Below are positions 15,283 to 63,800 of a stretch of 64,000 nt of DNA, piece after piece. The DNA comes from Ostreococcus lucimarinus. Lineage: Eukaryota. Below the pieces are notes generated by a model. That model was given only the letters and a program-made list of their open reading frames with translations. It searched no databases and was not told the DNA's origin. Numbering within the stretch: the first letter of the stretch is position 1; each line of letters starts with the position of its first letter. The position numbers and the translations under genes were made by a program. The DNA lies in the NCBI GenBank assembly GCA_000092065.1, contig CP000594.1. One strand, written 5' to 3'.

Positions 15283-16544
15283 TTAATCGAAGCTCAACAC
15301 GCATCGTAAGCACTTGCCTTCGTGCAACAGCTCGAACGCTTCGTTGATTTGATCAAACTTCATGCGGTGCGTGATGTATCTGTCGAGTTTCGTGTTTCCG
15401 CCCATGTACTTTTCGACCAGTTTCGGCACGGCGATGCGGCTCTTGTACCCGCCGAAAGCGGTACCTTTCCACGTGCGACCGGTGACGAGTTGGAATGGTC
15501 TGGTTGAGATTTCCGTGCCCGCGGCGGCGACGCCGACGATGACGGAAGTCCCCCACCCCTTGCGGCAGCATTCCAAAGCGCTTCGCATGACGTTGACGTT
15601 TCCGACGCATTCGAACGAATAATCCACTCCACCGTCCGTCATCTCCGCGATGACAGTTTGTGAATTTTTATCGCCAAACTTTGTCGGGTTCACAAAATCC
15701 GTGGCGCCGAACTCGCGCGCCACGGCTTCCTTTTCGTCGTTGGTGTCGACAGCGATGATGCGCGTCGCGCCCGCCTCCACAGCCGCCTCCACGCACGCCA
15801 ATCCGACGGCGCCCAGACCAAACACCGCCACGGAGCTCCCCTCTTCGACCCGCGCCGTGTTATGCACCGCCCCCCACCCCGTGCTCACGCCGCATCCCAG
15901 CAGGCACACCTTATCCAAACGGCGCCTCGTCGTTCCCCACCTGCGCCACCGCCACCTCGTGCACCACCGTGTACTCGGAAAACGTCGACGTTCCCATGAA
16001 GTGAAAAATCTCCGACCCGTCGCTCGCGAGCGTAAATCTCGGCTTCCCGTCGTTCTTCATCACCCCCGCGCCCGTGTACGCCCGCACCGCCTGACACAGG
16101 TTCGATTTCGGATGCACGCAGTGCGCGCACGGCTCCTTCGCGATGTCCGCGCAGTACGCCTGATAGCACGGAATCACCCGATCGCCCGCTTTACACGACG
16201 TCACGCCCTCGCCGACGGATTCCACCGTCCCCGCCGCCTCGTGTCCCAGGATGCACGGAAACTTCCCCTCCGAGTCGTGTCCGCCGAGCTGTTCGACGCG
16301 TCGGCGTCAGTCCGAGACGATCGACGGCGCGTCCGGGTCGAGTCGGCACGCGCGCGCGCGCGCGATTCGCGCGGCGAGCGCGCACCGTGTACGCATCCGT
16401 GTGACACAGCGCGTTGTACGCGATTTTAATTCGCACTTCGCCCGCCTGCGGCGGCGCGACGACGACGTCGACGATTCGCAGCGGCTCGCGCGGCGCGAAC
16501 GCCACCGCCGCCTTGCACGCGATCGGCTCGCCCGCGCGCGACAT
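15283..16544 (-). CDS. Class III alcohol dehydrogenase / S-(hydroxymethyl)glutathione dehydrogenase. Structure: exon 16544..16386, a 97-nt intron, then 16288..15286. Reading through needs a +1 correction at the T3 run 15917-15919.
   Basis: [17 protein letters not shown]...[16 protein letters not shown] / intron / [30 protein letters not shown]...[11 protein letters not shown]...[16 protein letters not shown]...[12 protein letters not shown]...[12 protein letters not shown] all align to human ADH5. The ORF track splits the gene into three frames (16191..16544, 15911..16225, 15283..15918). Confidence 0.9.
16289..16385 (-). other. Spliceosomal intron of 97 nt in the class III ADH gene: GTGCGC...CGAACAG, with an internal (CG)8 run and an ACTGAC branch-like motif
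   Basis: Removing it joins ...HTDAYT|[17 protein letters not shown], matching human [23 protein letters not shown] exactly in length. Without removal the ORF continues into Arg-rich nonsense. Confidence 0.8.
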
Positions 16545-16678
16545 GCGCTCGCGAGGCGATCAGTGGCGACGCGCGAACGCGAAGGGGACGTTTTTCGCGA
16601 CGACGATTCGACGACGACGGCGCGGGAAACGACGAGGCGTCGCGACGGACGGCGCGCGGAGTTACAAGCGAGCGTCCG

Positions 16679-16906
16679 CTACGGCTTGGCGCTCGCGAGG
16701 GGGGCGACGTACTGCGTGGACTGCTGAAACGCCTCGATCTCGCGGTGAATCGCGTCGACGGCGTCGGGCTGGACGAGGACGCGACGCGCGTCGAGGTCGA
16801 CGACGACGAACTTGCGCTCCGCGGGCGCGACGTCGTTGAGGTGGAGGATGTACTGCTTGATGGGGACGTCGGCGGTGATCATGACGCCGTGGACGGCGGA
16901 GACCAT
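16679..16906 (-). CDS. GTF2H5: General transcription factor IIH subunit 5 (p8/TTDA/Tfb5)
   Basis: MVSAVHGVMITADVPIKQYILHLNDVAPAERKFVVVDLDARRVLVQPDAV aligns with human GTF2H5 [45 protein letters not shown]. Length ~75 aa as expected. Confidence 0.75.
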   Translation of the reverse strand: MVSAVHGVMITADVPIKQYILHLNDVAPAERKFVVVDLDARRVLVQPDAVDAIHREIEAFQQSTQYVAPLASAKP

Positions 16907-60754: not shown

Positions 60755-60841
60755 AGCCGGCGTTCTCTCCATAGCGACGCAAGGTACCGTAGTTTGTAAA
60801 ACAATTGAATAAAAGTTAAAGTTAAAGTTGTTGTCACATTT

Positions 60842-63800
60842 CTAAACTTCGCGCTTCGACTTCTTGCCGCGTAAGATTCCCGCCGCCTTTGCTGATTTCA
60901 CGACGCCACCAAGCTGCGCGCGAGCGGCAACTTTTTTGCTATTGCGTCGATTCAAAAGTTTTGGATCAAGCGGCCAATACGCGTACGGCTCGAGCTTGGT
61001 TTGCTTCGAGTAGACGTCACCAGTCGTCTTACCCTTCGCCTTGTACAAATCAGCGCTGTGGCGCTCGTGCGTCGTGCGCTGCCGTTTGACACCGTTGGAA
61101 TTGTGCGTACCAACCGTACGCGAAGACTTGCCGGTAGCATTCGTCCGCGCGGTGGCGGCGCCTCGCGATTTACCAGTTTTGGACGTGTAACGTGAGCGAC
61201 CGCCTTCAGACGCGTTGTCTTCCTCTTCTTCGCGTCGACGCTTCGCGCCTTTCGCTCTCTTCAACAATCATGAGCTTGCCATCAGCGCCCGTACGGTAGC
61301 CACTGTCATCGTCATCGTCTTCGAACTTCACACGACGACGTTCTCCTTGCGGTAGCATCGATCGGCGCATGGCGCTATCGTCCAACAAATCAAGCGGGGC
61401 GTCGCCGGAAGCAGGAAGTCGTGCACCGCCCGTCGCGCGCTTCGCAGCCGCGGCTGCGGCGGAACGAGGACCCTCGCCACCACCTCGTCTAGAGGCTGGG
61501 GCAAAAGATCCTCCATCACGACCTCCGCGTCCACTTCTGCGCGATCGGCCGTCGTCGCTGTCGTCGCCCTCGTCGTCGCTGAAAATGTCGCCGTCGCGCC
61601 ATTCTGAACGTCTCGCCGTTCGCGTGGACTTGGCGCCGTGTTCACTACCTGCAACGGACGATTTCTTCTTCTTTTCTAATCGTGTCTCCTCGCGCTTGAT
61701 GTGCGCGATAAGTGCCATGTGTTCTTTTGGCATGCTCGCTTCGACGACTTCGTAACCACAACGTTTGCACATGCGTTCCAACACGACACGCACCTTGAGC
61801 TTGAAGCGATTCTTCGAATCTTCCGACCAATGCAACAGCGCTGGGACAAGTCGCGGAAGTTCGGCGGCGAGATCTTGTTGAGGTAGACGCACGACGACAA
61901 CCTTCACGAAGCCGAGGCACGACTTGACCACTTCGCGAGATTTTCCTTCGAGCAACGCGCACACTGCCGGTAAGAGTTCAGGAACGGTGGACACGAGCGC
62001 AGAGGAAAATTCGTAGAGCAAACGAGCGAGAGCCATGATGGTGGCCGATTGCATCTGAGGTGACGAGCCGACGATGCCAGCGAGCACGGTGAGGAAAAAT
62101 CGTCGAACGCCCACACCCATTTGCTCAGTCTCCATCGCCTCGTCGTCCTCCTCCTCTGTAGCCGCGCCGAGCCAGGCGGCGACGCCTGCGTTACCAGAGC
62201 GCGCAACTCCGCGTGCCGCTTCTGCATTCTTGCGCTCGATTGATCGTGGAATGCTTATCAAGAGCTGATACGCCAGCGTGCGCGTGCGCGCGTTGGTTTC
62301 TTTTGTGGCGAGAATGAGTTCGGAGAGAAGCACAGTGAGCGATCCAGTTTCGGCGATGCTCCCGGCACCGTCGCCGCCTTCCTCAGCGTCCGCCGCAGCG
62401 TCGCGTTCTTGAAGCGCTGGTAAAATCTTACCGATAACTTTCAATCGATACCGTCGCGCCGATGGTAAGCAACAATCAACGCCAGAAACGAGGAGCTCTT
62501 CGATTTCCGCCGCGCGCGGTTCAAGCCACTTCCCGTCTTGTGCCTCGCACAGCTCGTTGAGCAACTTGTATGCGCGCTTTTGAATCCACACTTTCCTTCT
62601 CCAGACACGCGGGTTTGGCAATTTTGTAAACCATTTCCAAGCCCTGATCGTCCAAGCCGGAAACGAGCGCGAAGACGAGATCCATGAAGGTGCACCTTCG
62701 TGCGGTCTTGTCGTCTCCGCCCTCCACCAAAGCGTCCGGCGCGCCCGGATCGTCCGCGGTCACTTTGACGAGTTTGCGCAGTACAGTCCTGAAGAAGCCG
62801 CCCAACTGCGCTTGATCGGTCACTTTTGCAAATGCACCGATTGTATGCGACAGCTCACCACGTCGTGACGTCGGTGACGAAACGAAGAGATTAAAAAGAA
62901 TGGGCAAAAAGTTCCGAGCGTACTTGCTCACCGCCGCGAGCTGCGCTTCGGCGATATCAACCGTGAAAGTCGCGGGCATTTGATCATCGTTGGGCTCACC
63001 CGCGGCGATTGTGGACGCACCGTCACCGGCTTCGTCGTCATCGTCGACTTCGTACACACCAGCGCCGATTCTTCCTTGACGAATCAAGCGCTTCAAGCCT
63101 ACGCAAATGGGCCCTTGCAAATCGATTCTCGAACTCAACGCATTGCCTAAATCCTTGGCAATCAACGGAAACGCGTCCGAGGCGTCGCTCGGCCAATTAG
63201 CAAACGCTGGAAACAGGCTCCAAAGTGCGTGCTCGGCGGCACCGCAGCGCTGCGCTTCGTACGAACTTTGAGAGTTTCGCGCGTGCTCGGCGCGAGCGCC
63301 CAACGCGCGCGCTTGCGGCAAAATGGCGTCAGCAAAAAATCCCATATTCGCTCCAACCAAACCAGAGCGCAACAACGGCACGAGCCAAAGTCGTCCAGTC
63401 TCTTGACTCGCTGCATTCATGACGTCTTGCTCGTCCACTTCCATGCCGTCTCCGTCGCCTTGACGGTTAGCGAGCTCGGCGTCGATGGCTTCTTCGAGTT
63501 TTAACGGAAGCGACGCGAGCACCTGCTCAGGACCTATGGCTTGAATCGCCGCCGTGATGCAGTCTTGCAGCTGTTGTTTGCACATCAACTCGCTCGCGTG
63601 CTCGCCCATCTCGCCGAGCGCGTTCAAAGTACCAGCCAAGATTGGCCCGGACGCGGGACCAAGGCGCATGAACGCGCATGTGGCGACGGGAATGGAAACA
63701 GCCCACGCGCCGCGATAGCGGAACCCGATCGCGGACTCAATGCTCGACGCCACGGACATCAACGTCGTCGGTTTGGACGGCGCGGACTTCCCCGCCGCTC

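What the first reader, a model, noticed from the sequence alone, without database searches (positions are those of the whole stretch)
15283..62621. Single-nucleotide frame breaks in conserved genes, always at short A/T homopolymer runs
In at least five conserved proteins the reading frame can only be maintained by skipping exactly one base, with no room for an intron. ADH3 needs AP|LDKV at the TTT run 15917-15919. ABC1 needs DLSFVL(I/N)V|SKVLQFLNPELS at aaa/t near 20002. VPS13 needs TTHFWIH|NDHTKNFVMSVL at AAA 52389-52391, which exactly parallels the preceding internal repeat NTTLWQMNNRVRGFVVVS. RRP12 needs a skip at gcgAAAgg near 61240 and in an AAA-rich stretch near 62600. All five are +1. 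The bZIP gene has a -1 break next to an A4 run around 29652. A/T homopolymers are rare in this ~65% GC genome. The most economical explanation is systematic homopolymer miscalling in the assembly, which would mean many gene models in this assembly are falsely split. The alternative is genuine +1 recoding at A-runs. No stop codon or consistent slippery heptamer is present at the sites, which argues against a Euplotes-style mechanism.
Basis: seen in the sequence. Interest (0 to 1): 0.55.

Follow-up and report, generated by a model that had tools for sequence, protein, structure and literature searches.

The report
Stray extra bases falsely splitting genes
The broken reading frames are real in this text, but they come from 13 stray single bases found only in this copy of an Ostreococcus lucimarinus sequence, so they are errors and not biology.

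Summary
The window is Ostreococcus lucimarinus CCE9901-type DNA. I compared 59 kb of it with 9-25 independent metagenome or read-archive contigs per site (98.9-99.99% identical).

- **Private insertions.** The window has 13 private one-base insertions and no confirmed private one-base deletion. Ten break genes: ADH3, ABC1, a ULK4-like kinase (two), VPS13 (four) and RRP12 (two). Three lie outside coding sequence.
- **Same-strain evidence.** Contigs of the same genotype differ from the window over 32 kb only by six of these insertions and three G-to-C changes.
- **Repair test.** Deleting the 13 bases restores single frames. Repaired VPS13, with one G-to-C change also reverted, equals RefSeq XP_001421248.1 exactly over 4434 aa. 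The repaired kinase matches XP_001421242.1 except at one residue, itself a window-only G-to-C change. Repaired ABC1 equals XP_001421425.1.

The "always A/T homopolymer" rule is wrong. Seven inserted bases are G or C, two lie in no run, and no run of five or more is affected. Two sites were misplaced, seven were missed, and the bZIP break is not an error. Recoding is excluded. Biological interest is low.

The parts
15917..15919 (-). Extra base no. 1: AA became AAA (TTT on the coding strand). It splits exon 2 of ADH3 (S-(hydroxymethyl)glutathione dehydrogenase).
   Evidence: Absent from 24 of 24 covering contigs, from same-genotype L008/L057 and from spliced contigs L050-55. Removing it gives a 313-aa exon collinear with P0061.
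20004..20006 (-). Extra base no. 2: TT became TTT. It splits the ABC1/UbiB-type kinase gene.
   Evidence: Absent from 25 of 25 contigs and from same-genotype L056 and L057. The repaired frame is 100% identical to RefSeq XP_001421425.1 (P0053) and to the 524-aa P0046.
25288..25289 (+). Extra base no. 3: T became TT, in the ULK4-like Ser/Thr kinase.
   Evidence: Absent from 9 of 9 contigs and from same-genotype L056. RefSeq XP_001421242.1 reads through this site.
25328..25330 (+). Extra base no. 4: GG became GGG, 40 nt downstream in the same kinase. Together with no. 3 it splits the gene into 23906-25432 and 25390-27720.
   Evidence: Removing both gives 1270 aa, identical to XP_001421242.1 except at residue 1005.
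28202..28203 (.). Extra base no. 5: T became TT, in the spacer between the kinase stop (27720) and the Myb start (28444). Non-coding.
   Evidence: Absent from 10 of 10 contigs and from same-genotype L056. Most related contigs have no called gene here.
28330..28331 (.). Extra base no. 6: G became GG, in the same spacer. Non-coding.
49973..49973 (+). Extra base no. 7: a G inserted in TGT^ATC, not in any run. First break in VPS13.
   Evidence: Absent from 12 of 12 contigs. Repaired VPS13, with 56923 also reverted to G, is an exact match to RefSeq XP_001421248.1.
52385..52386 (+). Extra base no. 8: C became CC.
   Evidence: Absent from 10 of 10 contigs. RefSeq reads FWITNDHTKNF here.
53560..53561 (+). 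Extra base no. 9: G became GG. Third break in VPS13.
57187..57187 (+). Extra base no. 10: a G inserted in CTT^AAT, not in any run. Fourth break in VPS13.
59893..59897 (.). Extra base no. 11: TTTT became TTTTT, 3 nt upstream of the cofilin/ADF start used by RefSeq (59900). Non-coding.
   Evidence: Absent from 10 of 10 contigs. The cofilin protein XP_001421249.1 is unaffected.
61250..61252 (-). Extra base no. 12: TT became TTT (AAA on the coding strand). It breaks RRP12.
   Evidence: Absent from 10 of 10 contigs. RRP12 is a single 1478-aa ORF in the related contigs and in dozens of distinct protein variants.
62586..62587 (-). Extra base no. 13: C became CC (GG on the coding strand).
   Evidence: After repair, residues 428-1478 lie in one frame at 99.9% identity.
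16916..16916 (.). Window-only substitution: C here, G elsewhere. It lies 10 nt upstream of the TFB5 start.
   Evidence: Differs from 25 of 25 contigs, including same-genotype L008 and L057.
26920..26920 (+). Window-only substitution G to C, giving kinase D1005H.
   Evidence: Same-genotype L056 and RefSeq XP_001421242.1 both have G (Asp).
36927..36927 (+). Window-only substitution G to C, giving ketoacyl-ACP synthase G330A.
   Evidence: Same-genotype L033 has G. The window's exact protein is absent from the 15-billion-protein collection while L033's is present.
56923..56923 (+). Window-only substitution G to C, giving VPS13 Q3830H.
   Evidence: The RefSeq VPS13 matches exactly only when this base is reverted to G.
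6912..6912 (-). Candidate further error: C here, G in 3 of 3 contigs. It turns TAC (Tyr) into TAG and splits the 569-aa Nramp gene into 6087-6887 and 6912-7796.
   Evidence: Not checked against a same-genotype contig.
15283..16544 (-). ADH3 gene: exon 1 at 16386-16544, a 97-nt GT..AG intron at 16289-16385, and exon 2 at 15283-16288.
   Evidence: Spliced contigs L050-55 encode a 388-aa protein with ADH_N and ADH_zinc_N domains.
45431..58739 (+). VPS13 gene. It is cut into five reading-frame segments by four insertions, and is 4434 aa once repaired.
60842..64000 (-). RRP12 gene (residues 428-1478 lie in the window; the rest runs off its end). It appears as three ORFs here.
29332..30339 (-). bZIP-like ORF with an overlapping 170-aa acidic ORF (29381-29893) in another frame. 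The claimed -1 break at 29652 is not a sequence error.
   Evidence: The window is identical to all covering contigs at that site. Both frames are also open in more divergent relatives. The bZIP_1 match is weak.

Best explanation
The window is a copy of nuclear DNA of the picoalga Ostreococcus lucimarinus (CCE9901 genotype). It carries scattered errors that the organism's DNA does not have: 13 one-base insertions and at least four G-to-C substitutions, roughly one change per 3-4 kb.

Each insertion inside a gene shifts the frame by +1. Intact genes (ADH3, ABC1, a ULK4-like kinase, VPS13, RRP12) therefore look split into overlapping ORFs. Nothing biological reads through these sites, because in the real genome the genes are single open frames.

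Shown here: the extra bases are absent from independent and same-genotype DNA. The seven in the kinase, ABC1 and VPS13 are also absent from the strain's reference proteins. Frames are restored when the bases are removed. Placement is indifferent to coding status.

Inferred: the errors arose during base-calling, consensus building or later handling of this particular record. Which of these cannot be told from the sequence.
For: - **Independent contigs.** All 13 extra bases are absent from every one of the 9-25 independent contigs covering each site. Those contigs come from Tara and other metagenomes and from Logan read assemblies, and are 98.9-99.99% identical to the window.
- **Same-genotype contigs.** L057, L056 and L033 (runs SRR23274481 and SRR1179203) share every strain-specific SNP and indel of the window over 32.4 kb. 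They differ only at six of the insertions and three G-to-C sites.
- **Repair test.** Deleting the 13 bases makes each gene collinear in one frame.
  - The kinase equals RefSeq XP_001421242.1 but for residue 1005.
  - ABC1 equals XP_001421425.1.
  - VPS13, with 56923 reverted, is an exact 4434-aa match to XP_001421248.1.
  - RRP12 residues 428-1478 match with one mismatch.
- **Coding status.** Three of 13 insertions are non-coding, as expected for random placement in a genome that is about 80% coding.
- **No signal.** There is no shared motif around the sites.
- **RNA evidence.** Spliced contigs that look RNA-derived show ADH3 without the extra base.
- **Uniqueness.** The window's broken ORFs and its KAS variant are absent from a 15-billion-protein collection.
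- **Precedent.** The first O. tauri reference needed 3342 indel and 2126 base corrections (PMC4378021).
Against: - The error signature is odd for any sequencing chemistry I know. There are 13 insertions against 0 confirmed deletions, no preference for long homopolymers, and all four verified substitutions are G to C on the + strand.
- I could not read the source record's raw reads or the reference chromosome's nucleotide sequence.
- Sites 59893, 61250 and 62586 were checked only against contigs of other genotypes (99.2-99.8% identical), not against a same-genotype contig.
Confidence: 0.95

Rival explanations
1. Classical homopolymer-length miscalling (454, Ion Torrent or nanopore type) at A/T runs, systematic across the assembly.
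For: Eleven of 13 insertions duplicate a neighbouring base, more than random insertion would give (P about 0.004). Four extend an A/T doublet and one extends T4.
Against: - Seven of 13 inserted bases are G or C.
- Six extend a single base and two are in no run.
- None of the 151 runs of 5 nt or more is altered.
- There are no under-calls.
- The original run-length distribution equals what random duplication of any base would give.
- The accompanying G-to-C substitutions do not fit this model.
Confidence: 0.1
2. Real mutations in this isolate or in a redundant second copy of the region. The genes would then be true pseudogenes, tolerated because another copy is intact.
For: RefSeq lists two accessions each for the identical hydrolase and cofilin proteins of this region. 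This could hint at duplicate loci.
Against: - Same-genotype read assemblies run through the sites without the extra bases.
- Metagenome contigs of 100-280 kb span the region as single copy.
- The spectrum, only +1 insertions and G-to-C changes with no transitions, is unlike natural mutation. O. tauri accumulated 8 substitutions and 3 indels genome-wide in 8 years (PMC4378021).
- In an organism generally taken to be haploid (my knowledge, not tested here), ten frameshifts in RRP12, VPS13, ABC1 and the others would be severely deleterious.
Confidence: 0.03
3. Programmed +1 ribosomal frameshifting or another recoding mechanism reads through the sites.
For: All coding breaks are +1 and the flanking protein sequence is conserved right up to the break.
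Against: - The organism's DNA lacks the extra bases.
- There is no common shift-site motif.
- Three insertions are non-coding.
- Two insertions 40 nt apart in one gene would require two shifts with a garbled 13-residue stretch between them, yet the reference protein has the normal sequence there.
Confidence: 0.01
4. The breaks are very short introns or mis-joined exons.
For: The genome does contain introns, for example the 97-nt ADH3 intron.
Against: The interruption is exactly one nucleotide with no missing residues. A one-nucleotide interruption is far too short to be a spliceosomal intron.
Confidence: 0

Closest known systems
Sequencing or assembly indel errors that create false frameshifts, for example the first Ostreococcus tauri reference (3342 indels and 2126 bases corrected with Illumina reads; PMC4378021)
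   Same: Single-base indels at about one per 4-5 kb split conserved genes. They vanish when compared with independent reads of the same strain. Their density is similar to the O. tauri case.
   Different: Here only insertions are seen, and the verified substitutions are all G to C on one strand. The strain's public protein set is clean, so the errors belong to this copy of the sequence, not demonstrably to the published annotation.
Homopolymer-length errors of pyrosequencing, semiconductor and nanopore platforms
   Same: Most insertions repeat the adjacent base.
   Different: There is no dependence on run length, no under-calls, two insertions outside any run, and G/C affected as often as A/T.
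Programmed +1 ribosomal frameshifting (Euplotes genes, yeast Ty1, ABP140 and EST3, antizyme)
   Same: Conserved ORFs appear interrupted by one extra nucleotide.
   Different: In true cases the extra base is in the genome, is conserved, and sits in a defined shift site. Here it is absent from the organism's DNA and has no motif.

Membership tests
Artefactual frameshift (sequence error) | The indel is absent from independent sequence of the same genotype | tested here: met
   L057, L056 and L033 differ from the window over 32.4 kb only at six insertions and three G-to-C sites. RefSeq VPS13, kinase and ABC1 lack seven of the insertions.
Artefactual frameshift (sequence error) | Removing the base restores one ORF collinear with orthologues, with no residues lost | tested here: met
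Artefactual frameshift (sequence error) | Placement is indifferent to coding versus non-coding sequence | tested here: met
   Three of 13 insertions (28202, 28330, 59893) lie outside coding sequence.
Artefactual frameshift (sequence error) | Raw reads of the source record do not support the base | not testable with these tools
   There is no access to the record's reads or to the reference chromosome's nucleotides.
Homopolymer-length miscall (454, Ion Torrent or nanopore type) | Errors concentrate in long runs and go in both directions | tested here: not met
   Original run lengths were 0, 0, 1 (six times), 2 (four times) and 4. None of the 151 runs of 5 nt or more changed. There are 13 insertions and no confirmed deletion. 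The 8377 G5/G4 difference is a natural allele shared by L057.
Programmed +1 ribosomal frameshift | The extra nucleotide is present and conserved in genomic DNA of the species | tested here: not met
   It is absent from all 9-25 contigs per site.
Programmed +1 ribosomal frameshift | A shared shift-site heptamer or stimulatory element | tested here: not met
   No k-mer is enriched within 7 nt either side of the sites (permutation P of 0.5 or more).
Pseudogene | The disabling mutation is present in the organism's genome | tested here: not met
   Same-genotype contigs and RefSeq proteins are intact.
Spliceosomal intron | GT..AG boundaries and a length of tens of nucleotides | tested here: not met
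   The interruptions are exactly 1 nt. The genuine ADH3 intron, at 97 nt, gives the contrast.

The most novel reading that the evidence does not exclude
The extra bases are really present in the DNA of the clone that was sequenced, for example in a recently duplicated, decaying second copy of this roughly 60-kb block or in a mutator subline. The window would then show many conserved genes being inactivated by +1 insertions.
Probability: 0.02. Interest if true: 0.55.

Novelty: not a real feature. Interest (0 to 1): 0.07.

Why it matters
The value is practical. Any gene caller run on this copy of the sequence would:
- split or truncate ADH3, ABC1 and the ULK4-like kinase;
- cut VPS13 into five frame segments;
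- cut RRP12 into three pieces;
- possibly truncate Nramp at a premature stop.

Any scan for recoding or pseudogenes would also be misled. The check shows that near-identical environmental contigs can proofread a reference-type sequence base by base. It says nothing new about the alga's biology.

Tried and rejected
- **Introns.** Rejected, because the interruptions are exactly 1 nt.
- **Shared slippery motif.** Rejected by k-mer permutation. An apparent TTGAAT coincidence at three sites did not survive that test.
- **Long-homopolymer error model.** Rejected by the run-length census.
- **All nine 'C here, G elsewhere' private sites are errors.** Rejected. Sites 9839 and 12016 are natural CCE9901 alleles (XP_001421271.1).
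- **The private 1-nt deletion at 8377 (G5 to G4) is an error.** Rejected, because same-genotype L057 shares it.
- **bZIP break.**
  - No canonical intron joining the two frames was found with a strict donor pattern.
  - The homologue search returned only ORF-style calls and no transcripts.
  - The SNP codon-position analysis was inconclusive.
  - It is left unresolved, but it is not a sequence error.
- **Look-ups that gave nothing useful.**
  - The window's kinase C-terminal fragment and its KAS protein are not on record.
  - The O. lucimarinus genome paper was not found under the PMC id I tried from memory.
  - The run SRR1179203 is not mentioned in the searched papers.
  - A VPS13-fragment homologue search returned no hits.
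  - The Nramp N-terminal fragment matched only a contig that ends 2 nt before the site.
- **A second genomic copy.** The duplicate RefSeq accessions for two proteins suggested this, but I could not test it directly.
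Full report
**What is there**

Three-frame translation confirms the basic observation. 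Several conserved genes in the window can only be read by skipping exactly one base, with no residues missing: ADH3, ABC1, VPS13 and RRP12.

**Where the window comes from**

- Intact ORFs of the window are found exactly in hundreds of marine metagenome and read-archive (Logan) contigs.
- Several window proteins are identical to RefSeq proteins of Ostreococcus lucimarinus CCE9901, all on a 708,927-bp chromosome:
  - XP_001421239.1, S-formylglutathione hydrolase;
  - XP_001421249.1, cofilin/ADF;
  - XP_001421453.1, TFB5;
  - XP_001421454.1, pseudouridine synthase;
  - XP_001421271.1.
- The window is 59% GC, not about 65%.

**Base-by-base comparison**

I fetched 58 loci and aligned them to the window. 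About 59 kb is covered by three or more independent contigs at 98.9-99.99% identity.

After left-normalising the gaps, exactly 13 one-base insertions are private to the window. Each is absent from all 9-25 contigs that cover it.

| Position | Change | Location |
|---|---|---|
| 15917 | A; AA to AAA | ADH3 |
| 20004 | T; TT to TTT | ABC1 |
| 25288 | T to TT | kinase (1270 aa, single ORF elsewhere) |
| 25328 | GG to GGG | same kinase |
| 28202 | T to TT | kinase-Myb spacer, non-coding |
| 28330 | G to GG | kinase-Myb spacer, non-coding |
| 49973 | G inserted in TGT^ATC | VPS13 |
| 52385 | C to CC | VPS13 |
| 53560 | G to GG | VPS13 |
| 57187 | G inserted in CTT^AAT | VPS13 |
| 59893 | T4 to T5 | just upstream of the cofilin start, non-coding |
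| 61250 | TT to TTT | RRP12 |
| 62586 | C to CC | RRP12 |

In the other contigs these genes are single ORFs: ABC1 of 524/569 aa, the kinase of 1270 aa, RRP12 of 1478 aa, VPS13 of 4434-4510 aa, and the ADH3 exon of 313 aa.

**Same-genotype evidence**

Three Logan contigs share every strain-specific SNP and indel of the window, including the hypervariable spacer near 30 kb:

- L057 from run SRR23274481, covering window 7799-22035;
- L056 from run SRR1179203, covering 18222-30581;
- L033 from run SRR1179203, covering 31501-41170.

Over these 32.4 kb they differ from the window only at six of the insertions and at three substitutions where the window has C and they have G (16916, 26920, 36927). 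L057 retains the ADH3 intron, so it is genomic DNA.

Six spliced contigs that look RNA-derived encode a 388-aa ADH3. They have the 97-nt intron (16289-16385) removed and no extra base at 15917.

**Repair test**

Deleting the 13 bases puts every affected gene into one frame.

- The kinase then equals RefSeq XP_001421242.1 except at residue 1005, which is the 26920 substitution.
- ABC1 equals XP_001421425.1.
- VPS13 becomes a 4755-codon open frame. With 56923 also reverted to G, it matches XP_001421248.1 exactly over 4434 aa.
- RRP12 residues 428-1478 match dozens of independent 1478-aa proteins with a single mismatch, at 63101.

So the strain's own reference proteins lack the seven insertions that fall in the kinase, ABC1 and VPS13. 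No RefSeq RRP12 or ADH3 protein for the strain was recovered.

**Nature of the errors**

- **Neighbour duplication.** Eleven of 13 insertions duplicate a neighbouring base (P about 0.004 against random insertion).
- **Run lengths.** The original run lengths (1 six times, 2 four times, 4 once, plus two outside any run) match what duplicating any random base would give.
- **Long runs untouched.** None of the 151 runs of 5 nt or more is changed.
- **Base composition.** Seven inserted bases are G or C.
- **No motif.** No sequence motif is shared around the sites.
- **Coding status.** Ten of 13 insertions are coding, as expected by chance in this compact genome.
- **Substitutions.** All four verified window-only substitutions are G to C on the + strand.
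- **Further candidates.**
  - 6912 creates a TAG stop in Nramp.
  - The others are 3533, 31404, 63101 (T to A), 5217 and 44109.
- **Natural alleles.** Other private differences are natural CCE9901 alleles, including a G5/G4 length difference at 8377 and the C alleles at 9839 and 12016.
- **Origin unknown.** This signature (insertions only, complement-type substitutions) does not resemble a sequencing platform I can name. I cannot say whether the errors arose in base-calling, consensus building or later handling.

- ADH3, ABC1 and the first RRP12 site are correct.
A/T triplets occur every 44 nt on average (1453 in the window), so one is always nearby.
- The bZIP '-1 break' at 29652 is not an error, because the window is identical there to all other contigs.
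  - The bZIP-like frame and an acidic 170-aa frame overlap in divergent relatives as well.
  - I could not settle whether they are spliced together.

**Alternatives**

- Recoding is excluded because the organism's DNA has no extra bases.
- Real mutation is very unlikely.
  - The spectrum contains no transitions at all.
  - The affected genes are conserved and the alga is generally taken to be haploid (my knowledge, not tested here).
  - Ostreococcus cultures mutate slowly: 11 changes genome-wide in 8 years (PMC4378021).
- A decaying second copy cannot be fully excluded. Two proteins carry duplicate RefSeq accessions. However, long single-copy metagenome contigs and the same-genotype assemblies argue against it.

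**Verdict**

This is an artefact of this copy of the sequence. It is of practical importance for annotation and of low biological interest.

Noticed in passing
window 45431-58739 (+), especially 46300-58000: The body of VPS13 is much poorer in GC than its surroundings. It has GC 0.47-0.50 and GC3 about 0.50. Eight neighbouring genes have GC3 of 0.63-0.77, and VPS13's own first 900 nt have GC3 of 0.80. The feature is present in all environmental contigs, so it is natural, but it is unexplained.
   Followed up: partly
window 16916, 26920, 36927, 56923 (verified); 3533, 6912, 31404, 63101, 5217, 44109 (candidates): Besides the insertions, the window carries private substitutions that are all complement swaps. 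The four verified ones are G to C on the + strand. One candidate, 6912, creates a premature TAG stop in the 569-aa Nramp transporter.
   Followed up: partly
window 23906-27720 (+): A ULK4-like Ser/Thr kinase with ARM/HEAT repeats (1270 aa elsewhere) is split by two insertions only 40 nt apart.
   Followed up: yes
window 29332-30339 (-) and 29381-29893 (-): A small bZIP-like ORF overlaps, in another frame, a 170-aa ORF ending in a conserved acidic tail (..DDLDGIDIDDFAWLDD..). Both frames stay open in relatives that are 63-74% identical. Whether a splice joins them is unknown.
   Followed up: partly
window 30000-30600: A hypervariable GC-rich spacer upstream of the bZIP ORF shows many indels and SNPs among otherwise 99.5%-identical environmental contigs. 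It is identical between the window and same-genotype contig L056.
   Followed up: no
window 60812-60829; also 37499, 41647, 43156, 10759, 10878, 8377: These are natural length polymorphisms among wild genotypes. They include (AAAGTT)n copy number between cofilin and RRP12, 15-bp and 21-bp GC-rich repeat units, an AAA at a gene end, and a G5/G4 run in the Nramp-DIRP spacer.
   Followed up: partly
window 16289-16385 (-): ADH3 has a 97-nt GT..AG intron with a CTGAC branch-like motif. It is removed in six Logan contigs that otherwise span several neighbouring genes.
   Followed up: yes
RefSeq accessions for window 14338-15228 and 59900-60754: The identical hydrolase and cofilin proteins each carry two RefSeq accessions (XP_001421239 and XP_001421274; XP_001421249 and XP_001421285). 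Other genes of the window fall into one of two accession series about 35 apart. These are either duplicate models or a duplicated locus in the reference.
   Followed up: no
L020 (ERZ10646685 contig_31313) and L026 (ERZ10646527 contig_11810): Two metagenome contigs carry many private indels of their own. Their contig naming looks like long-read assembler output. RRP12 is split 1141+362 aa in L020, and ADH3 and the esterase are fragmented in L026. This is the same kind of artefact arising independently.
   Followed up: no
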